A stretch of 64,000 nt of DNA, taken from the NCBI GenBank assembly GCA_964347865.1, contig CAYGAC010000044.1:105206-169205 (forward strand). The letters are read 5' to 3'. The position numbers and the translations under genes are program-made. Position 1 is the first letter of the stretch. Each line of letters opens with the position of its first letter. Shown in pieces: positions 4,431 through 52,011 of this stretch. Under the pieces are notes generated by a model, which saw nothing but the letters and a program-made list of their open reading frames with translations, was not told where the DNA came from and did no database searches. The stretch is from an uncultured Thermoplasmatales archaeon (lineage in GTDB: Archaea > Thermoplasmatota > E2 > DHVEG-1).

Positions 4431-5297
4431 TTAGTGTGTTACTGTTGTGGATATAAGTTCTCCTTGAACAATTCCATTTGGCATGGCTATATCCACCTTA
4501 ACGACATTTCCAACCGAAGGAGCATAATAGTATTCAAAGAAATCACCAATTATTGAGGTGATTCTCCATGCATCAAAAGTTCCTGCTTCGACAGTGATAC
4601 TTTCTGTACTCCAGCACCAAAAGGCCAGAGGTGTCCATGAATAATGTGTTTGGAAAGTGATAGGGATATTTATCAGGCCAAATATTCCACCTAACTGTGA
4701 ATTCATTTTAATATCGACTTCTGGTAATGACCAGGTTTTTAATGCATATAATGGGAAATCAAAAATGGGTAATTTGGTACTAAAATCACCGTCTATAGAC
4801 CATTTAAAAGGAATTGGTAATGCTATAGGTAAAGGAGAGATTTTTGCCATGGTAATACCTTTAATTTCTCCAAAAACATCCTCAATTTCCAAGTCGGATT
4901 TTGAAAAATGGATAGATCCTTTTAAACGAGTCAATGCAGGATTAAATGTACCCTCAACATCTAATGTCATAGAAGATGAGGAAAGATAAATATCATAATC
5001 TGCAGTAAGTTTACCTGAAAAGTCCACCTTATAACTACTGCCGCTAGTTTCATCAACTGTCAATTTAAAGTCATCAATTTTTCCACCCATAAACATCTTT
5101 TGTCCACCGACATCATAGTCTACATTAAAATTATTTAATGTAAAAGTCCAACTATCTCCAACAACCCAAGTGGGCACATCATCATCAAAAGAAGTTGAAT
5201 TTTTTGAAATTTGATTATCTTTGATAGCATTTACCATTACTGTAAAATTAAATATTATCATCGTACAAAACATTATTACTAAGATTTTATTCTTCAT
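4431..5297 (-). CDS. secreted hypothetical protein (signal peptide, beta-rich)
   Basis: N-terminal signal MKNKILVIMFCTMIIFNFTVMVNA. The remainder is hydrophilic and Ser/Thr/Asp-rich. No recognisable catalytic motif. Confidence 0.4.
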   Translation of the reverse strand: MKNKILVIMFCTMIIFNFTVMVNAIKDNQISKNSTSFDDDVPTWVVGDSWTFTLNNFNVDYDVGGQKMFMGGKIDDFKLTVDETSGSSYKVDFSGKLTADYDIYLSSSSMTLDVEGTFNPALTRLKGSIHFSKSDLEIEDVFGEIKGITMAKISPLPIALPIPFKWSIDGDFSTKLPIFDFPLYALKTWSLPEVDIKMNSQLGGIFGLINIPITFQTHYSWTPLAFWCWSTESITVEAGTFDAWRITSIIGDFFEYYYAPSVGNVVKVDIAMPNGIVQGELISTTVTH

Positions 5298-6913: not shown

Positions 6914-7160
6914 ATAACTATCACTAAATTCAATAAACTGAAATTTATTTATAAATACCTCCTATTTACATTAAATTTAATATTCTTTTATGATATGTTG
7001 AAATAACAAAAAGCATTCACCAAAAAAGAAAAATTAAAGTATTAAATTACAAATGTTGTAAAAAGTAAGAATTAAGTTCAAAGTAATAGAATTTATAAGT
7101 AACATTTAAATCATTTGCGAAAACCTTATATTACCTTTACTTTTTGCTAACTTGGGGGCT

Positions 7161-7243
7161 GTAGAGCTTTAAAGAGAGTTGTTCATTTTTCATTCAATCT
7201 CACTTTACCATCCTTTCCTCCTCTCCTCATAGAAAAGCTCTAC
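7161..7243. repeat. stem-enclosed pyrimidine-core element, copy A (10-bp stem GTAGAGCTTT/AAAGCTCTAC enclosing CATCCTTTCCTCCTCTCC)
   Basis: A perfect inverted repeat at 7161-7170 and 7234-7243. The enclosed loop carries the core shared with copies at 9869-9930 and 51206-51266. Confidence 0.5.
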
Positions 7244-7320
7244 CACTCTAAAAATTTATTATTATTTCGTCTCTTATTAAAATTATAATAATGAGTTTTT
7301 AAAAATTGATATATAATGTA

Positions 7321-7385
7321 AATGGGGAAGAAGGGGGAGGTAAATAGAATGAGTATTCTAAAAAATTTAGTTCTTTCCCCATTCT
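7321..7385. other. hairpin with Shine-Dalgarno-like GGGGGAGG in the loop, followed by a 12-codon ORF
   Basis: Arms AATGGGGAAGAA and TTCTTTCCCCATT (about 11 bp, one mismatch) enclose GGGGGAGGTAAATAGAATG...TAA. Confidence 0.35.
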
Positions 7386-7451
7386 AACTTATTTAGTTTG
7401 ATAGTGCATATAGATTCATTATATAAATTTTTCCATATATATTTTATATAT

Positions 7452-7925
7452 TCAAAACTGAAAATCTTTATTAAAAATTTTATTCAAAATTATTTTTCTA
7501 ACAGTTTTTAGATCTGAATCTAAATAAATTGCTCCAATTAATGCCTCTAACGAATTAGCAAGATTTGTACGATTTTTCGCTCCATTTTGTTTTATTTCAC
7601 CTTTCCCCAGTAATATGAATTTTCCTATACCTAATTTCTTTGCTATATCAGCTAAAAAATTATTATTAACCCCAATAGATCTTCTACGAGTAAGTTCGCC
7701 CTCAGAAAAATATCTATTGCTTTTATATAATTGCTCTGCTACAATAAAATTAAGAATGCTATCCCCTAAAAATTCTAAACGTTCGTTATATTCGAGAGGC
7801 GTTTTTGCTTCAAAAGCATAGGTTTTATGCGTTAATGATTCTTCTAGCAATTTCTTATTTTCAAATTTGTAACCGATTTTTTCTTCAAGAATTTTAAAAT
7901 TATTAACTTTCATAATAAAACACAT
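7452..7925 (-). CDS. rnc: mini-ribonuclease III (RNase III catalytic domain only, no dsRBD)
   Basis: RNase III signature ERLEFLGDSILNFIVAEQLY plus the second acidic cluster (EALIGAIYLDSD). At 157 aa there is no room for a dsRBD. Confidence 0.7.
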   Translation of the reverse strand: MCFIMKVNNFKILEEKIGYKFENKKLLEESLTHKTYAFEAKTPLEYNERLEFLGDSILNFIVAEQLYKSNRYFSEGELTRRRSIGVNNNFLADIAKKLGIGKFILLGKGEIKQNGAKNRTNLANSLEALIGAIYLDSDLKTVRKIILNKIFNKDFQF

Positions 7926-9665: not shown

Positions 9666-9868
9666 TTTTTATTATAACATATCATTCACTAAAAAATTTA
9701 TTGTTTTAATACCTTCGATGAAATAATTAAAATTAAAAAGTTAATAAATATAATTTAACTTAATAATATAATTAATGGAATTTCTCCATGATATTAAAGA
9801 ATTTTTATCAGTTATAAATAACGAATGTTGCAAAAAATTTATATACTATTTATGTATATTTTCATAAT

Positions 9869-9930
9869 AAGGGGGTCAATTTTTTTGAAAATGATTCCTA
9901 TTACATCATTTTCCTCCCTTCTGACCCCTT
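9869..9930. repeat. stem-enclosed pyrimidine-core element, copy B (AAGGGGGTCA ... TGACCCCTT enclosing CATCATTTTCCTCCCTTC)
   Basis: Inverted repeat with a one-base bulge. Same loop core as copies A and C. Lies in a divergent intergenic region. Confidence 0.45.
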
Positions 9931-10126
9931 TATATATTCAAATTTTTTTAATATAAAAAAGGATTTAACAGATTTTTAAGAACAATATATTCACACATTT
10001 TAAATTTCGCTATTTTGTTAATTAGAATAATTTACCTTTTACTAATTAAACGAACTCTGATTTGCTCTTTGACCATGGTATTTAAATAGATAACTTTATA
10101 ACAGGGACTCTGATACGGCGTGAGAA

Positions 10127-20621: not shown

Positions 20622-20939
20622 TATTTTATTTCCTCACCAATTATCAGAGATTTTAACTGATACTTCGAATTATTATGCTAATATCATCTCTCCTTTTTAT
20701 TCTAATTCAAACTAGCATCAATTTTATTGCTATAGTTAGGCAACCCATTACGGGTAAAGCTTACTTCAATCTATAAGCTTTTCGTTTTTTTATACTATTA
20801 ACTCTAAATAACTAGGTCAAAGTTCACTTGAATGTATATTTTATAATTATGGAATATTTTTACTTATTATTTATGATATACTTTTTTAGAATATAATTTT
20901 ATCTCAAAACTAATACATAACTATCTAGTTATAAAAAAT

Positions 20940-28984: not shown

Positions 28985-29664
28985 GTTGCTGGTTTATTAG
29001 TATAATCGATAAAATTATCTAAAGCTGCTTCGCCAATTTCTGTTGGGTAGTAAACAGGGTATGCAGAATTACTAGTGTCCCCATCAATTAATTCTGCCAT
29101 AAACATTTTATTAATATGCCATTTTACTACGTGATGATTTAGTTTTAGTGCATGTGCAATTTCAAGGAGATGTTTTCCTGGATTTTCCTGAAGGTATCGC
29201 ATTATTTCTAAAGCGTTTTTATTTCTAAGTATTGCTTCTGCAATTGCTTGTTTTCTTGATTCTATACCACCCTCAACAAGATAATAAACCTTTTTTCCCC
29301 CTATGTATCTACTACGAACTAGATTTGTCTGCTCCAATTTACGTAGATGCCATGCAGCGTTACTTGGTTTTAAATCAAGTTCTCTAGCAATTTCTCTAAG
29401 ATGTGAACCTGGACACTCATCAATATATTCATAGAGATTTTTTCTAATCTCCGTGTCAAGTACGTTTTCAGGTGTTACATATTTTACTCCACTTGCTAAG
29501 AAAAAGAAACCAGCAATAATTGCAATAGCAGCTATAATAACAGCTAATGTAATCATAATTGAGCTGCTACCATCTGGTCTTAGTAGTGAAGCATTAACAC
29601 TTTCTACCGCAATAAAGAGAGATAAAATAAATAAAACTGAAATAAATTTATTTTTAAAACACAT
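28981..29664 (-). CDS. membrane-anchored transcriptional regulator with two ArsR/wHTH-like domains
   Basis: N-terminal signal/TM segments. The first wHTH-like segment is LYEYIDECPGSHLREIARELDLKPSNAAWHLRKLEQTNLV. The second is LEIMRYLQENPGKHLLEIAHALKL. Confidence 0.45.
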   Translation of the reverse strand: MCFKNKFISVLFILSLFIAVESVNASLLRPDGSSSIMITLAVIIAAIAIIAGFFFLASGVKYVTPENVLDTEIRKNLYEYIDECPGSHLREIARELDLKPSNAAWHLRKLEQTNLVRSRYIGGKKVYYLVEGGIESRKQAIAEAILRNKNALEIMRYLQENPGKHLLEIAHALKLNHHVVKWHINKMFMAELIDGDTSNSAYPVYYPTEIGEAALDNFIDYTNKPAT

Positions 29665-29726
29665 TGATTATCCCATCCTTTTTTTGCACCCTAACTTTTA
29701 TATAAATATTAAAAAGCTTAAAAAGT

Positions 29727-38484: not shown

Positions 38485-40086
38485 TTAACTAATCAAAGAA
38501 AAGATGAATATTTGAATACCCTTAGCATAATCTATTTCGTATAATCCTTCATCACATTCTACTGTCACTGTTATAGCTATTGGTCCCAACCCAAGTATCA
38601 ATCCATAATTTGCATAAATTTTACAATTAATAGCAAGAGTTTCTACTGTACCGGTCGAATTTTTATTTATTTTACTCAAGATTCCACCAATTACAGTCAT
38701 TGTCCATTTTACATTTGTCGCTTCAGCATTTCCAATATTTTCAATAGTTGCAATAATACCAACTGGACGACCTTTTATCGATATTATATCAATTTCTGGT
38801 TTTGTTTCATCATATGCTTGTCCGAAGTAGATATCTCTATCATCACCTCGGTTGTCTTCCCAAACTGCATATATTCCATCTTTTCCTTTTCCAAGATCAT
38901 GAGAACCAAATTCAGAAACTGCTTGACTGTCTTGCACTTTTTGTTCTTCTATCCAATTAGCACCGCCATTTTCAGATTTTTTACAATAAACAGCACCATC
39001 TTTCACATAAGAACAAACAAATACATTTCCATCAAATGTAACCTTTACCTCTGGAAATTTGGCTGAATTAACTACTGTATTTTTTTGAATAGATGAAAAT
39101 CCGTTATCTGAATAGAAACAAACAATGTTATCTTCTTCCTCGCAAACAATGATAATAGCATTATTATGTGCTTCAATCGATGGATTTGAGAGGTTCGTAA
39201 TACCATCACCAATAGACCAACTTCCAATATGTGGATGATGATTTTGGGCATCCCATTCTCCAAAATTATCCTTTCTCACCAGTAGGTTTGCATCCACTTC
39301 ATTGTCCCACACAGCATAAGACATTTCTGTTACTTCATTAATTGCTATATCTGAATTAAGAAAATTATCACTCCATATATATGTCAACACACCACCATAT
39401 TCCCCATTCTCATAATAAATACATGGACAGGTAGGTGAATACCAGGGAGATAATATATCACATACAAAGGATATACCTCCAAAATTCCATGATTCACCTA
39501 CTCTAGTATAACATGAAATAGCAGGAATCAAAAAATTCTCACATTCACGAAAAGGATACCATTCATCCAAAATTCCCCTATAATCTATATAATGAGGTAG
39601 ATCATCTGAATATATAAGCCATATCTCATTATCCCATTGTCCATAATCTTTTAAAACTGTAGCGTAGAAACCATTATCATTTGAATCTGCATCCGGAAAT
39701 TCACATCCTACTGATTCAGAGAAATATCCAATTTCTTCCCAACTCACGCCATTATCTAGTGAACACCAAAAATCTGGATAATAGTCAACACCATCCCATG
39801 TACGCTCAAAACATGTAAAAAATCTACCTCTATTGTCTCCAGCTAGGATTGGGTGAAAATCATCATATTCCGAATCATTTATAATAGTGCTATCGCTTTG
39901 AGTGCCAGAAGTTTTTAAAGCTTTCTCTAAAGTATCTGATCTTGATTTCTCACAATACAAAAAATATACCTTTGTATCAATTTCTCTAGTCTGTAATGAG
40001 GTTTCTTCTATATCATTTGAAACTCCTACGAAAGATGATAATAAAAAAATCAAAAGTACAATTATCGGAATGAAGTTTATTTTCAA
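38485..40086 (-). CDS. secreted Asp-box/BNR-repeat protein (sialidase-like beta-propeller) with a C-terminal Ig/CARDB-like domain
   Basis: Signal peptide. Asp-box motifs SLDNGVSW and SENGGANW. Trp/Asp-rich. C-terminal beta-sandwich-like region. Confidence 0.45.
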   Translation of the reverse strand: MKINFIPIIVLLIFLLSSFVGVSNDIEETSLQTREIDTKVYFLYCEKSRSDTLEKALKTSGTQSDSTIINDSEYDDFHPILAGDNRGRFFTCFERTWDGVDYYPDFWCSLDNGVSWEEIGYFSESVGCEFPDADSNDNGFYATVLKDYGQWDNEIWLIYSDDLPHYIDYRGILDEWYPFRECENFLIPAISCYTRVGESWNFGGISFVCDILSPWYSPTCPCIYYENGEYGGVLTYIWSDNFLNSDIAINEVTEMSYAVWDNEVDANLLVRKDNFGEWDAQNHHPHIGSWSIGDGITNLSNPSIEAHNNAIIIVCEEEDNIVCFYSDNGFSSIQKNTVVNSAKFPEVKVTFDGNVFVCSYVKDGAVYCKKSENGGANWIEEQKVQDSQAVSEFGSHDLGKGKDGIYAVWEDNRGDDRDIYFGQAYDETKPEIDIISIKGRPVGIIATIENIGNAEATNVKWTMTVIGGILSKINKNSTGTVETLAINCKIYANYGLILGLGPIAITVTVECDEGLYEIDYAKGIQIFIFSLIS

Positions 40087-50707: not shown

Positions 50708-51046
50708 TTATTCCTCATCTGAACATGAATCACATTCGAGTGGAAAAACTCCTCTAGATATAAAAATTTTACAAATTCTGCATGTTTCAGGTACTACAGA
50801 CGATCCTCCATTTTTAATAATTAATTCTGCAGATTTATTGATTTCCGCTAGTATGGATTCATCGACAATCTTTATTTTACCTCGTTTTTTTGATAAATAC
50901 TGACACACTGCTGCCGGAGTTAATCCGAGTTTTATTGCAGTTTCCTTTTGGTTCAATCCATAATTTTTAATCATACTTTCGGCGATTTCTTTTCTGATCA
51001 CCGGTAATCCATTCCACATCATGTATTCGCAAGGGGTATTTTTCAT
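50708..51046 (-). CDS. putative transcriptional regulator (HTH plus C-terminal Cys4 Zn-ribbon)
   Basis: HTH-like QKETAIKLGLTPAAVCQYLSKKRG. C-terminal CRICK...CDSC. Confidence 0.4.
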   Translation of the reverse strand: MKNTPCEYMMWNGLPVIRKEIAESMIKNYGLNQKETAIKLGLTPAAVCQYLSKKRGKIKIVDESILAEINKSAELIIKNGGSSVVPETCRICKIFISRGVFPLECDSCSDEE

Positions 51047-51197
51047 AAGCTTAAAACAATCTTTATATACTTATAATTAACGGCCGTTAATAAACTATAT
51101 ATAATCTATAAAATTTTGATTTAATTAAAGTAAAATTTTGAAAAAAAATACAATAGAAAAGTTTAAATATTGAAGCTGTATTAACAATTGTTAATTG

Positions 51198-51229
51198 GAG
51201 ATGTAAAACAGGGGATTTTTTTACATCTC
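51198..51229. other. perfect 11-bp hairpin GAGATGTAAAA/TTTTACATCTC nested in element copy C
   Basis: Seen directly. The loop is CAGGGGATTT. Confidence 0.4.
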
Positions 51230-51266
51230 ATCCTTTCCTCCCTTCCTCACCAACCTTTACCCCTGT
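51206..51266. repeat. stem-enclosed pyrimidine-core element, copy C (ACAGGGG ... CCCCTGT enclosing CATCTCATCCTTTCCTCCCTTCCTCACC)
   Basis: Inverted repeat at 51208-51214 and 51260-51266. Loop core shared with copies A and B. Lies in a divergent intergenic region. Confidence 0.45.
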
Positions 51267-51378
51267 ATAATTTACGTCTCCATTTATCCAATTTTTGGAT
51301 TGAATTTTAGAATCAGAAAAAACATATTCAAAAATAATTTAATATTTAATATAATATCAAAGTTAGATTTAATACAAG

Positions 51379-52011
51379 TTGATATTTATGGATGATCTGA
51401 TACATAAAATCGAATCTTTAAAAAATAATGAAATAGGAGAATTAGTCAATAAAAGGATAATAGATTTTAAAAATGTAAATAAAGAATCAATGTATGAATT
51501 ATTTAATGAATTGTGTTTTTGTATTCTCATAGCAAATTTTAATGCTGAAAAGAGTATAAATATTCAAAATGAAATTGGGGATTCTTTTTTTACTCTATCT
51601 GAAGGAGATTTAGCAAAAAAGCTTAAAAATCTTGGTTATCGCTTTCCAAACACAAGAGCAAAATATATTTCAGAATCATCATTATATAAAGAGTTGGTGC
51701 AAAAAAATGTTACATCGCTTGAAGGTGAGCGTTTACGAACATGGTTAGTTAACAATATTAAGGGATTTGGCTACAAAGAGGCAAGTCATTTTCTGAGAAA
51801 TATTGGGTTTGATGATTATGCTATAATCGATTTTCACATTATAGATATTCTAGTTAGATATGATTTAATTAAAAAACCAAAAACAATAACCGGAAAAAAA
51901 TATTTAGAGATTGAAAAAATATTAAAAAAAATCGCTAAAAAATCAGATCTAAATTTAGCTGAACTTGACCTTTATTTATGGTATATGAAAACAGGCAAAA
52001 TATTGAAATAA
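51379..52011 (+). CDS. ogg: N-glycosylase/DNA lyase, archaeal Ogg2-type 8-oxoguanine DNA glycosylase (HhH-GPD)
   Basis: HhH motif IKGFGYKEASHFLRNIGFDDYAIID with catalytic Lys/Asp spacing. The size, about 210 aa, matches Ogg2. Confidence 0.6.
   Translation: MIFMDDLIHKIESLKNNEIGELVNKRIIDFKNVNKESMYELFNELCFCILIANFNAEKSINIQNEIGDSFFTLSEGDLAKKLKNLGYRFPNTRAKYISESSLYKELVQKNVTSLEGERLRTWLVNNIKGFGYKEASHFLRNIGFDDYAIIDFHIIDILVRYDLIKKPKTITGKKYLEIEKILKKIAKKSDLNLAELDLYLWYMKTGKILK

What the first reader, a model, noticed from the sequence alone, without database searches (positions are those of the whole stretch)
51198..51266. Copy C of the element, with a nested perfect 11-bp hairpin
The stem ACAGGGG/CCCCTGT encloses CATCTCATCCTTTCCTCCCTTCCTCACC. 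Its 5' arm overlaps a second, perfect hairpin GAGATGTAAAA-CAGGGGATTT-TTTTACATCTC at 51198-51229. The two helices are mutually exclusive, which is the hallmark of a switch such as a riboswitch or attenuator. The motif TTCCTCACCAA also appears as the genuine RBS context of glgA at 20628-20640. The core therefore mimics a real local SD partner.
Basis: seen in the sequence. Interest (0 to 1): 0.55.

Follow-up and report, generated by a model that had tools for sequence, protein, structure and literature searches.

The report
New archaeal small RNA family
The flagged hairpins are part of a roughly 100-base structured RNA gene, conserved in more than 150 uncultivated Thermoplasmatota sequences, that displays an invariant, almost guanine-free pyrimidine loop complementary to ribosome-binding sites and sits beside a conserved small regulator gene and a DNA-repair operon.

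Summary
The sequence features are real.

**Mature fold.** It is one long hairpin:
- A 45-nt G-free loop carrying AUCUCAUCCUUUCCUCCCUUCCUCACCAA.
- A short tail and a T-run at 51292-51296.

**Conservation.** A covariance model finds one copy in each of about 30 genome and about 110 metagenome loci of MBG-D-like Thermoplasmatota. All 17 base pairs show compensatory changes, and 94% of cells are paired against 52-63% in slid controls. G·U outnumbers A·C 33 to 5, which fixes the strand. Rfam 15 has no match.

It is the predicted nascent fold and is possible in 24 of 27 orthologues. It has no covariation support and loses to P1+P2 by about 13 kcal/mol. A riboswitch or attenuator is not supported.

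**Neighbourhood.** The RNA is linked to a divergent 112-aa Cys-rich HTH protein and a TTAAC-N4-GTTAA palindrome (123 of 137 loci), usually upstream of ogg. Paralogues occur elsewhere, including window 7172-7265.

**Most likely function.** A regulator-controlled small RNA whose loop (anti-AUG plus anti-Shine-Dalgarno) masks translation start sites. Evidence for specific targets is weak.

The parts
51196..51207 (+). P1 5' arm (UGGAGAUGUAAA)
   Evidence: MFE and centroid of the 98-nt RNA. Eight modelled P1 pairs all show compensatory changes in 27 orthologues, with 96% of cells paired.
51271..51282 (+).
   Evidence: It is conserved as GATTTACGTCTCCAT in L002 and L005 while the flanks diverge.
51208..51214 (+).
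   Evidence: Nine modelled P2 pairs all show compensatory changes, for example G-C to A-U in L033, L047 and L048.
51260..51266 (+). P2 3' arm (CCCCUGU)
51215..51259 (+). 45-nt apical loop with no G. It contains the conserved core 51224-51256 (CAUCUCAUCCUUUCCUCCCUUCCUCACCAACCU).
   Evidence: The loop is unpaired in the MFE and centroid folds. The 13-mer CATCCTTTCCTCC is present, with at most 1 mismatch, upstream of ogg in about 30 genome loci. The 21-mer core is exact in at least 119 metagenome contigs.
51198..51229 (+). It is an alternative, nascent pairing of the P1 5' arm with the segment just 5' of the core.
   Evidence: -11.8 kcal/mol, z = -4.73. It is the MFE of prefixes up to about 80 nt only. 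It has no covariation support.
51283..51296 (+). 3' tail (UUUAUCCAA) and T5 run 51292-51296, the probable archaeal termination signal
   Evidence: A T-run of at least 4 begins 5-12 nt after P1 in 23 of 27 orthologues, and at +20 in a 24th.
51158..51169 (+). AAAG-TTTAAATA, a BRE/TATA-like box about 27 nt upstream of P1
   Evidence: Conserved in L001, L005, L206 and L208, and as AAAGTTTTTAATA in L002. Other lineages carry GAGGTGGTATAAAA or GGGGTATATTGG at a comparable position. Calling it a promoter is an inference.
51181..51194 (+). Palindrome TTAACAATTGTTAA between the TATA-like box and P1. Putative operator.
   Evidence: TTAAC-N4-GTTAA lies within 360 nt upstream of the core in 123 of 137 loci, against 0.08 per kb overall. 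Only two sites exist in the 64-kb window, against 0.17 expected.
51077..51090 (+). Second palindrome TTAACGGCCGTTAA, near the start of the divergent regulator gene
   Evidence: Equivalent sites are TTAACGGTTGTTAA in L206 and TTAACTAGCGTTAA in L208.
50708..51046 (-). 112-aa Cys-rich HTH-like protein ('HTH112'), transcribed divergently from the RNA. Putative regulator.
   Evidence: It lies upstream of the RNA in most metagenome loci. The family has 754 members, 67-100% identical among the best 120 listed, and JGI names some 'predicted transcriptional regulator'. C6, C89, C92, C104 and C107 are invariant. The AF2 model has pLDDT 79.6; Foldseek hits are weak and mostly XRE/Cro-type.
51388..52011 (+). 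ogg (8-oxoguanine DNA glycosylase), the first gene downstream and co-oriented, followed by ArsP-type permease and a DNA-alkylation-repair gene
   Evidence: Pfam Ogg-HhH 2e-58, ArsP_1 and DNA_alkylation. ogg follows the core at +91 to +190 in 89 of 112 metagenome loci with enough sequence.
7172..7265 (+). Paralogue A. It has the same core (CCAUCCUUUCCUCCUCUCCUCA) in a different hairpin (GUAGAGCUUU/AAAGCUCUAC).
   Evidence: CM hit of 23.6 bits, E = 0.03. Fold z = -2.34. Orthologues L134 and L193 keep the core and context but have another stem.
7305..7386 (-). Related element B, convergent with A. It has an outer stem, an inner hairpin and ACCUCCCCC.
   Evidence: CM hit of 16.9 bits, E = 1.7. Fold z = -3.39. 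It is conserved in L134 with compensating stem changes.
9866..9936 (+). Related element D. It has the same architecture as B, with CCUCCCUUC in an internal loop.
   Evidence: Found as a strong duplex partner on the opposite strand. Fold -24.9 kcal/mol, z = -6.06.

Best explanation
Window 51196-51296 (+) encodes a small non-coding RNA of about 100 nt.

**Transcription (inferred).** It starts from its own BRE/TATA-like promoter at 51158-51169. It ends at a T-run at 51292-51296, with possible read-through into the ogg-arsP-alkylation-repair genes.

**Fold (shown by covariation).** The RNA forms one long bipartite hairpin, P1+P2. The only job of the hairpin appears to be to hold out a 45-nt G-free loop that cannot pair with itself. 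The loop carries an almost invariant sequence, AUC(C/U)CAUCCUUUCCUCC(UC/CU)UCCUCACCAA.

**Action (inferred).** The loop is the reverse complement of a canonical translation initiation region: CAU is anti-AUG, CCUUU is the spacer, and CCUCC and CUCACC are anti-Shine-Dalgarno. The most likely action is base pairing with the SD/start-codon regions of the SD-led subset of mRNAs, which blocks 30S binding. It would be an archaeal counterpart of the bacterial anti-TIR 'sibling' sRNAs.

**Regulation (inferred).** Expression is probably controlled by the divergently encoded 112-aa Cys-rich HTH protein acting through the conserved TTAAC-N4-GTTAA palindrome. This is a regulator/sRNA pair of the oxyR-oxyS type, and perhaps a redox or metal stress module, given the neighbouring DNA-repair genes and the invariant cysteines.

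The 11-bp hairpin is the first structure the nascent chain can form. It is displaced once the 3' arm of P1 is made.

**What is shown and what is inferred.** Shown: conservation, fold, strand, loop composition, synteny and the palindrome. Inferred: promoter and terminator use, the trans-acting mechanism, the targets, and the regulator-operator link.
For: - **Conservation.** There is one full-length CM hit per locus: 27 genome loci at E < 1e-5 and nearly all of the first 100 metagenome loci.
- **Fold.** All 17 pairs show compensatory changes. 93.9% of cells are paired against 52-63% in slid controls. The covariation score is 0.556 against 0.25 for shuffles, with 0 of 500 shuffles as high. The window RNA folds at -25.4 kcal/mol, z = -5.15. 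The reverse strand gives only z = -1.79.
- **Strand.** 33 G·U against 5 A·C in the helices.
- **Loop.** It is unpaired in the MFE of nearly all orthologues. G is 4.4% against 15.2% in the genome, and C is 32.5%.
- **3' end.** A T-run begins 5-12 nt after P1 in 23 of 27, and at +20 in one more.
- **Upstream signals.** The upstream box and the palindrome are conserved.
- **Link to the regulator gene.** HTH112 synteny is seen. The RNA stays with HTH112 when ogg is deleted (L206, L208).
- **Independence from a downstream gene.** Paralogues have an identical loop but unrelated stems and contexts, several of them without a co-oriented downstream gene.
- **SD use in this genome.** SD-like words lie upstream of 14 of 59 window genes, against 6% of internal control windows.
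- **Exact complements at real TIRs.**
  - UUGGUGAGGAA (11 nt) at the glgA-like gene.
  - GGAAGGGAGGAA (12 nt) at the 533-aa gene starting at 40086.
  - AAAGGAUGGGAU (12 nt, to the consensus core) at the wHTH gene starting at 29664.
- **Precedents.** Streptococcal csRNAs carry anti-SD plus CAU in an unpaired region (PMC3091779). M. mazei sRNA162 masks an RBS with a single-stranded linker (PMC3510493).
Against: - No transcript data exist for these uncultivated organisms.
- Target evidence is weak. TIR windows pair with the core only slightly better than internal windows (Mann-Whitney p about 0.03). They do not clearly beat composition-matched shuffled cores (9 of 60 shuffles for the window core, 1 of 60 for the consensus).
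- Exact complements of 10-12 nt in 1.86 Mb of related DNA are no more frequent than for shuffled cores.
- Only about a quarter of genes here look SD-led.
- Near-invariance over 25-29 nt is more than a typical sRNA seed needs. It hints at a protein or another conserved partner.
- In the main locus type a co-oriented gene always follows within about 30-100 nt of the T-run. In one lineage that gene has an SD but little room for its own promoter, so a cis role is not excluded.
Confidence: 0.45

Rival explanations
1. It is a cis-acting 5' leader or attenuator of the ogg-arsP-alkylation-repair operon. The hairpin plus T-run terminates most transcripts. Read-through, or sequestration of the downstream SD by the anti-SD loop, sets operon expression. 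Any free small RNA is a by-product.
For: - The RNA is co-oriented with, and 91-190 nt upstream of, ogg in 89 of 112 loci.
- When ogg is lost, the RNA sits directly before ArsP (L151, L163, L171, L181, L206, L208) or before the alkylation-repair gene (L122-type).
- In group-1 loci the T-run is only about 30-35 nt from an ogg ATG that has its own SD, which leaves little room for a separate promoter.
- Some paralogues also precede co-oriented genes, such as FUR plus flavin-reductase/rubredoxin, or a rhodanese protein.
Against: - Copy A and its orthologues L134 and L193, and also L192 and L194, have no co-oriented downstream gene.
- ogg in the window lineage shows no SD to sequester, by eye.
- No alternative helix is supported by covariation.
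- The downstream genes are functionally heterogeneous.
- In a genome that is 88% coding, co-orientation in 5 of 8 distinct contexts is about what chance gives.
Confidence: 0.2
2. It is a protein-binding or decoy RNA. The G-free loop carries repeated YCC units (AUCC-CAUCC-UUUCC-UCC-UCUCC) and is a platform for a single-strand pyrimidine-binding protein. Candidates are a KH-type or rRNA-3'-end-binding factor, or HTH112 itself. The RNA would titrate or deliver that protein, in the manner of CsrB/RsmZ.
For: - 25-29 nt are almost invariant across hosts whose Ogg proteins are only 55-70% identical. That is more than base-pairing seeds usually require.
- The short motifs repeat (sequence).
- No enriched complementary targets were found.
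- Several copies per genome share the loop but not the stems.
Against: - No candidate protein has been identified.
- The CAU-N5-CCUCC register matches an SD-AUG spacing exactly, which a protein site need not do.
- HTH112 looks like a DNA-binding HTH.
Confidence: 0.15
3. It is a ligand-sensing riboswitch or a two-state switch. The 11-bp hairpin and the long hairpin would be the two states.
For: - The alternative pairing of the P1 5' arm is perfect in the window.
- It is predicted for the nascent chain in 24 of 27 orthologues.
- The conserved loop, covarying stems and T-run superficially resemble an aptamer plus terminator.
Against: - The alternative helix equals the shuffle expectation, and its pair 6/65 is broken in 14 of 27 sequences.
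- The energy gap to the mature fold is 13 kcal/mol.
- A G-free loop cannot build a compact aptamer.
- Archaeal termination needs only the T-run (established knowledge).
- No Rfam riboswitch matches.
- Some paralogues have no downstream gene.
Confidence: 0.05
4. The purine-rich opposite strand is the functional one. It would be a strong SD (GGAGG) plus AUG opening a tiny ORF, that is, a leader peptide or start-stop element.
For: All four window copies read GGAGG-N3-8-ATG on the purine strand, with ORFs of 2-16 codons.
Against: - The ORF is not conserved in length or frame (16 codons in the window, 18 in L002, 5 in L005).
- G·U against A·C is 33 to 5 in favour of the pyrimidine strand.
- The reverse strand folds poorly (z = -1.79).
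- The T-run and the TATA-like box are placed for the pyrimidine strand.
Confidence: 0.03

Closest known systems
csRNAs (cia-dependent small RNAs) of Streptococcus
   Same: Both are several sibling copies per genome of about 90-150 nt. Both share a nearly identical unpaired segment containing an anti-Shine-Dalgarno sequence and CAU (anti-AUG). Both are under one transcription factor and are proposed or shown to block translation initiation (PMC3091779).
   Different: The csRNAs are bacterial, and no sequence or structure homology was found (no Rfam hit). Their unpaired segment lies between two stem-loops. Here it is the closed apical loop of a single long hairpin. Here the conserved stretch is much longer (25-29 nt) and G-free, and the regulator is a small Cys-rich HTH protein rather than CiaR.
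Divergent regulator/sRNA gene pairs (oxyR-oxyS, gcvA-gcvB, sgrR-sgrS in E. coli; from my own knowledge)
   Same: The sRNA gene lies head-to-head with a small transcription-factor gene, and a conserved palindromic site sits in the shared intergenic region. Like OxyS, it is genomically tied to oxidative-damage functions (ogg).
   Different: The organisms are archaeal, with a TATA/BRE-type promoter. The regulator family is uncharacterised, and binding and induction are untested.
Methanosarcina mazei sRNA162 (archaeal RBS-masking sRNA)
   Same: It is an archaeal trans-acting sRNA whose single-stranded region pairs with an mRNA and masks the ribosome binding site (PMC3510493).
   Different: There is no sequence or structural similarity. 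sRNA162 is a single-copy gene with a linker between domains and specific targets. It is not a generic anti-SD/anti-AUG loop.
C-rich-loop sRNAs of Firmicutes (RsaE/RoxS, LhrC; from my own knowledge)
   Same: C/U-rich motifs are exposed in hairpin loops and pair with G-rich SD regions. LhrC exists in multiple copies.
   Different: Those use short UCCC/CCCC motifs in small loops, not a 45-nt loop with a 25-nt invariant sequence. They are bacterial. Rfam models for these families do not match.
Riboswitch / transcription attenuator
   Same: Covarying stems flank conserved unpaired nucleotides. The element lies upstream of a co-oriented operon in most loci, is followed by a T-run, and an alternative pairing of the 5' arm is possible.
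   Different: The alternative helix lacks covariation and is 13 kcal/mol weaker. The loop is G-free and unstructured. Paralogues exist without a downstream gene.

Membership tests
Any described RNA family (Rfam 15) | Score at or above a family's gathering threshold | tested here: not met
   There were 0 hits in the whole window at gathering thresholds. Permissive scans of 51100-51400 and 7050-7460 gave only chance-level hits, the best at 22.7 bits against a gathering score of 109.
   P1+P2 show compensatory changes at 17 of 17 pairs, with 0 of 500 shuffles as good. The alternative helix shows 78.9% paired cells, equal to the shuffle mean, and a covariation score of 0.149 against 0.166 for shuffles.
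   This holds for the main locus type (89 of 112). It does not hold for copy A and its orthologues L134 and L193, nor for L192 and L194, where the next gene is convergent.
   The conserved part is a 45-nt loop with no G in the window and 4.4% G family-wide, predicted to be unpaired. Ligand binding itself cannot be tested with these tools.
Trans-acting anti-TIR sRNA (functional kind; csRNA-like) | Independent transcription unit (own promoter, own terminator) | tested here: inconclusive
   A conserved TATA/BRE-like box lies upstream. A T-run begins 5-12 nt after P1 in 23 of 27, and at +20 in one more. No transcript data are available.
Trans-acting anti-TIR sRNA (functional kind; csRNA-like) | Accessible single-stranded region complementary to the SD and start codon | tested here: met
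   CAUCCUUUCCUCC is the reverse complement of GGAGG-AAAGG-AUG. It lies in the unpaired loop in the MFE and centroid folds.
Trans-acting anti-TIR sRNA (functional kind; csRNA-like) | Identifiable mRNA targets with complementarity beyond chance | tested here: inconclusive
   Enrichment at TIRs is weak (p about 0.03; 9 of 60 and 1 of 60 shuffled cores did as well). The k-mer complement counts equal the shuffled-core controls. Individual exact complements of 11-12 nt exist at three TIRs.
csRNA family proper (Streptococcus) | Sequence/structure homology and a CiaR-dependent promoter | tested here: not met
   There is no Rfam match. The host is archaeal and the promoter is TATA-type. The resemblance is functional only.
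Regulator/sRNA divergent pair (oxyR-oxyS type) | A transcription-factor gene head-to-head with the sRNA gene, conserved across genomes | tested here: met
   HTH112 lies divergently upstream in most metagenome loci. The two stay together when ogg is lost.
Regulator/sRNA divergent pair (oxyR-oxyS type) | The regulator binds an operator at the sRNA promoter and controls it | not testable with these tools
   The palindrome TTAAC-N4-GTTAA is conserved in 123 of 137 loci and unique to this intergenic region in the window. Binding is inferred only.
Archaeal C/D-box or H/ACA guide RNA | C (RUGAUGA) and D (CUGA) boxes, or an ACA box with a pseudouridylation pocket and a K-turn | tested here: not met
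   No such boxes were seen on either strand on reading the sequence. The best C/D-box Rfam hit, sR33, scored 10.6 bits against a gathering score of 37.
Plain transcription terminator of a neighbouring gene | Lies downstream of, and co-oriented with, a gene whose transcript it ends | tested here: not met
   The upstream gene (50708-51046) is on the opposite strand and points away. The loop sequence is conserved far beyond what a terminator needs.

The most novel reading that the evidence does not exclude
Uncultivated sediment Thermoplasmatota (MBG-D-like) would carry a dedicated stress module. A Cys-cluster HTH sensor would switch on a family of hairpin RNAs whose invariant G-free loop imitates the ribosome's anti-Shine-Dalgarno tail plus an anti-start codon. 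These RNAs would act as a global competitor of the 30S subunit for SD-led mRNAs, or as a decoy for a factor that recognises the 16S 3' end. The effect would be to reprogramme translation towards leaderless and SD-less messages while DNA-repair genes are co-induced. That would be a mode of global translational control not described in archaea.
Probability: 0.15. Interest if true: 0.8.

Novelty: new member of a known kind. Interest (0 to 1): 0.6.

Why it matters
Very few archaeal regulatory RNAs have a defined structure, a phylogenetic spread and a plausible mechanism. Almost none come from uncultivated lineages. This family offers several things at once:
- It has more than 150 members, strong covariation and an unmistakable functional face: a G-free loop that mirrors the SD plus AUG.
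- It has several paralogues per genome.
- It has a conserved partner regulator with its operator.

That makes several ideas directly testable:
- RBS-masking sRNAs and regulator/sRNA pairs, which are standard in bacteria, may also exist in Thermoplasmatota.
- SD-led and leaderless translation may be regulated separately.
- There may be an archaeal oxidative or alkylation damage response (ogg, the alkylation-repair gene, and a FUR/rubredoxin paralogue context).

The family also supplies a ready covariance model for annotating these genomes. Even if the trans-acting mechanism proves wrong, the RNA is a real and undescribed conserved element.

Tried and rejected
- **Simple repeats.** Direct-repeat search in the window found no copy of the element, because the copies share only the loop core. 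The 28-nt core is unique in the window at up to 3 mismatches.
- **Known RNAs.** There are no tRNA or tmRNA genes. Rfam gave nothing.
- **First alignment.** A plain MAFFT alignment of 28 orthologues gave no RNAalifold structure because the 3' arms were misaligned. This was solved by modelling the well-aligned subgroup and re-aligning with the CM.
- **Small ORF on the purine strand.** Rejected: it is not conserved, and the G·U/A·C count points to the other strand.
- **C/D-box or H/ACA guide.** No boxes are present.
- **Cis pairing with neighbouring TIRs.** By eye the HTH112 and ogg TIRs in the window have no purine-rich SD, so pairing with the loop looked unlikely. This was not computed.
- **Conserved trans targets.** Searches in 1.86 Mb of related loci gave counts equal to shuffled-core controls.
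- **HTH112 identity.**
  - Pfam and NCBIfam hits were sub-threshold only.
  - The PDB sequence search found nothing.
  - The single-sequence AF2 model was poor (pLDDT 51.6).
  - The alignment-based model was usable (pLDDT 79.6), but Foldseek hits were weak (E >= 0.36).
- **Literature.** Full-text searches for the core sequence and for Thermoplasmatota anti-SD sRNAs found nothing relevant.
- **rRNA complementarity.** This could not be tested.
Full report
**The observation.** GAGATGTAAAA (51198-51208) pairs perfectly with TTTTACATCTC (51219-51229). ACAGGGG (51208-51214) pairs with CCCCTGT (51260-51266). TTCCTCACCAA recurs exactly at 20630-20640. There it is antisense to the translation start region of a minus-strand glycosyltransferase (glgA-like) gene, UUGGUGAGGAA-N9-AUG. 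The 11-bp hairpin on its own is far better than chance (-11.8 kcal/mol, z = -4.73). The 7-bp stem on its own is not (z = -1.41). The 11-mer recurrence is also unremarkable: 3 matches at up to 1 mismatch against 1.2 expected. CAGGGG sits in the loop of the hairpin.

**What surrounds it.**
- The window is 31% G+C and archaeal. The adjacent Ogg protein has its closest named relatives in 'Thermoplasmatales archaeon' MAGs such as SG8-52-3.
- The element lies in a divergent intergenic region. On one side is a 112-aa gene on the minus strand (50708-51046). On the other is ogg (51388-52011, +), followed by an ArsP-type permease and a DNA-alkylation-repair gene.
- The element is a G+C island (38% against 15% in the flanks).
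GGAGAUGUAAA (51197-51207) pairs with UUUACGUCUCC (51271-51281).
- Folding 51194-51291 gives P1+P2 enclosing a 45-nt loop: -25.4 kcal/mol, 57% of the ensemble, z = -5.15. The opposite strand folds poorly (z = -1.79).

**Orthologues.**
- Loci fetched through Ogg homologues showed the element conserved while its flanks diverge (L001, L002, L005).
- A scan of species-representative genomes returned 80 ogg loci. The 13-mer CATCCTTTCCTCC, with at most one mismatch, lies about 92-170 nt upstream of ogg and co-oriented with it. This holds in about 30 of the roughly 40 Thermoplasmatota-type loci and in none of the more distant archaea.
- MAFFT alone misaligned the 3' arms. A subgroup alignment gave a clean P1+P2 consensus, from which I built covariance model R1.
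- R1 finds exactly one strong hit per locus: 27 at E < 1e-5, with the window at 97.8 bits.
- On the 27-sequence alignment all 17 pairs carry compensatory changes. 93.9% of cells are paired against 52-63% when the partners are slid. The covariation score is 0.556 against 0.25 for shuffles, with 0 of 500 as high. The alignment is fitted to the model, which inflates these numbers somewhat, but the margin is large.
- G·U pairs outnumber A·C 33 to 5, so the pyrimidine-rich strand is the RNA.
- A T-run of at least 4 begins 5-12 nt after P1 in 23 of 27, and at +20 in one more.
- A TATA/BRE-like box lies upstream. It is AAAGTTTAAATA in the window lineage and GAGGTGGTATAAAA or GGGGTATATTGG elsewhere.

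**The loop.**
- AUC(C/U)CAUCCUUUCCUCC(UC/CU)UCCUCA(CCAA) is almost invariant, although the hosts' Ogg proteins are only 55-70% identical to the window's.
- The loop has no G in the window. Family-wide it has 4.4% G against 15.2% in the genome, and 32.5% C.
- It is unpaired in nearly every MFE fold.
- CAU-CCUUU-CCUCC is the exact reverse complement of GGAGG-AAAGG-AUG, that is, an SD, a 5-nt spacer and a start codon.

- On the same alignment the 11-bp alternative helix has 78.9% paired cells, identical to the shuffle mean. It has no covariation, and one pair is broken in 14 of 27 sequences.
- Forcing it in the full RNA costs about 13 kcal/mol.
- It is the MFE of the nascent chain until about nt 80.
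- A comparable nascent pairing of the P1 5' arm with ...UUUUU-xxAUCCCAU is predicted in 24 of 27 orthologues, with modest z-scores (median -1.67).
- I read it as a co-transcriptional intermediate. It may also be a by-product of the fact that both the core's 5' edge and the P1 3' arm are 'CAUCC-like'. I do not read it as a regulatory switch.

**Wider distribution and context.**
R1 confirms full-length hairpins in nearly all of the first 100 of these, the ones searched.
- In 89 of 112 loci with enough sequence, ogg follows at +91 to +190. In most, the 112-aa gene lies divergently upstream.
- Where ogg is missing, the RNA stays with the 112-aa gene and precedes ArsP or the alkylation-repair gene.
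- In two chromosomes a 3' remnant of ogg is still visible downstream of an intact RNA and promoter (L206, L208).
- A 14-bp palindrome, TTAAC-N4-GTTAA (mostly TTAACAATTGTTAA), lies within 360 nt upstream of the core in 123 of 137 loci, against 0.08 per kb overall. It usually sits just upstream of the TATA-like box.
- In the window the palindrome occurs exactly twice in 64 kb, against 0.17 expected, and both sites are in this intergenic region (51077-51090 and 51181-51194).
- The 112-aa protein belongs to a 754-member family. The best 120 listed are all at least 67% identical, and the few with a named source are Thermoplasmatales MAGs. JGI calls some 'predicted transcriptional regulator', and members have occasional Cro/HTH_3 Pfam hits.
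- Five cysteines in that protein are invariant: C6, C89, C92, C104 and C107.
- Its alignment-based AF2 model (pLDDT 79.6) is all-helical. It gives only weak Foldseek hits, mostly XRE/Cro-type regulators.
- Together this looks like a regulator/operator/sRNA module.

**Paralogues.**
- Window 7172-7265 (+) carries the consensus core in an unrelated hairpin (R1 E = 0.03). L134 and L193 keep the same core and neighbours (a CBS protein and a mini-RNase III) but have a different stem.
- Other contexts exist. One paralogue sits upstream of a FUR-family gene plus a flavin-reductase/rubredoxin fusion. Another sits upstream of a rhodanese protein. Others sit before convergent genes.
- Two further window elements have a different architecture but again expose CCUCC-type sequence: 7305-7386 (-) and 9866-9936 (+).
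- None of the paralogues in the window has the palindrome.

**Mechanism.** The best-supported reading is a stand-alone, or 5'-terminal, small RNA whose hairpin presents an accessible anti-SD/anti-AUG loop that pairs with translation initiation regions.
- SD-like words precede 14 of 59 window genes against 6% of internal controls, so an SD-led subset exists.
- Exact complements of 11-12 nt occur at three real TIRs.
- Statistically, however, TIR complementarity is only marginally above internal sites and above shuffled cores. No long complements are enriched in 1.86 Mb of related DNA.
- The mechanism therefore rests on anatomy and analogy. Streptococcal csRNAs have the same anti-SD plus CAU logic (PMC3091779). 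M. mazei sRNA162 shows RBS masking in archaea (PMC3510493).
- The main rivals are a cis-acting leader of the repair operon and a protein-binding platform. The length of the invariant stretch gives the protein-binding idea some weight.

**Novelty.** There is no Rfam match at any threshold, and no literature hit for the sequence or for such sRNAs in Thermoplasmatota. It appears to be an undescribed RNA family that probably works like a known kind of regulator.

**Verdict.**
- The switch interpretation is not supported, but the 'SD partner' intuition is right.
- The element is a genuine, conserved and apparently new archaeal sRNA with a linked candidate regulator.
- Confidence that it is a real structured RNA is above 0.9.
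- Confidence in the anti-TIR trans mechanism is about 0.45.

Noticed in passing
window 7172-7265 (+): Paralogue 'A' of the RNA. It has the consensus core CCAUCCUUUCCUCCUCUCCUCA in a different hairpin (GUAGAGCUUU/AAAGCUCUAC), between a CBS-domain gene and a mini-RNase III gene. Orthologues L134 5015-5105 and L193 keep the core and neighbours but have the stem GGGGGUCUA/UAGACCCCC.
   Followed up: partly
window 7305-7386 (-); L134 about 5185-5250: Element 'B' is convergent with A and about 40 nt away. It has an outer stem, a 5' inner hairpin and UACUCAUUCU..ACCUCCCCC (anti-AUG plus anti-SD with about 8-10 nt spacing). It is conserved in L134 with compensating stem changes. Its tiny purine-strand ORF is not conserved (12 codons against 4).
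   Followed up: partly
window 9866-9936 (+): Element 'D' has B-type architecture: GGGGGUCA ... [GAAAAUGAU-loop-AUCAUUUUC] CUCCCUUC UGACCCC, followed by a T-rich stretch. It folds at -24.9 kcal/mol with z = -6.06. It lies upstream of the radical-SAM gene on the opposite strand. It was not looked for in relatives.
   Followed up: no
window 7452-7925 (-): A mini-RNase III gene (RNase III domain only, 157 aa) lies directly beside the convergent A/B RNA pair, in the window and in L134 and L193. A double-strand-specific nuclease next to two facing small RNA genes may be coincidence, or may be functionally linked.
   Followed up: no
window 50708-51046 (-): This 112-aa protein has no Pfam family. It has an HTH-like centre (LTPAAVCQYLSKKRG) and invariant cysteines C6, C89, C92, C104 and C107. 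Its family has 754 members (67-100% identity among the best 120 listed) and appears confined to this clade. This looks like a metal, Fe-S or redox-sensing XRE-like regulator.
   Followed up: partly
window 51077-51090 and 51181-51194: These are the only two TTAAC-N4-GTTAA palindromes in 64 kb. Both lie between the 112-aa gene and the RNA. One is near the regulator's start. The other is between the TATA-like box and the RNA's first base. In most other lineages there is a single site just upstream of the TATA-like box.
   Followed up: yes
L206 3600-3720 and L208 3600-3720 (minus strand): In two near-complete chromosomes (CP070724.1, CP070798.1) ogg has been deleted from this locus. It leaves a recognisable 3' remnant (…SDLSLAELDIYL…), while the RNA, its promoter and the palindrome are intact. 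In CP070724.1 a functional ogg sits elsewhere (L010) without the RNA.
   Followed up: partly
L094 674-784 and downstream: A paralogue of the RNA sits upstream of a FUR-family regulator gene and a flavin-reductase/rubredoxin fusion (Pfam). This is an oxidative-stress-type context, consistent with the ogg linkage. L092, L154, L156 and L200 carry another paralogue upstream of a secreted rhodanese-domain protein and a fasciclin protein.
   Followed up: partly
window about 29665-29695 (-), TIR of the gene starting at 29664: The upstream region of a winged-helix (HVO_0163-like) regulator gene reads GGGTGCAAAAAAAGGATGGGATAATCAATG. It contains a 12-nt perfect complement to the consensus core's 5' part (AUCCCAUCCUUU). 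That is preceded by a string resembling the P1 5' arm of other lineages (GGGGUGCAAAA). It may be a target or a relic.
   Followed up: no
L002 981-2555; L003, L004: In one lineage a DDE-transposase gene occupies the place of the 112-aa regulator gene upstream of the RNA. The RNA, TATA-like box and palindrome are unchanged.
   Followed up: no
window, whole: Only about 24% of 59 roughly called genes have an SD-like word at -20 to -3, against 6% of internal control windows. Most genes in this organism therefore probably start translation without an SD (leaderless or SD-independent).
   Followed up: partly
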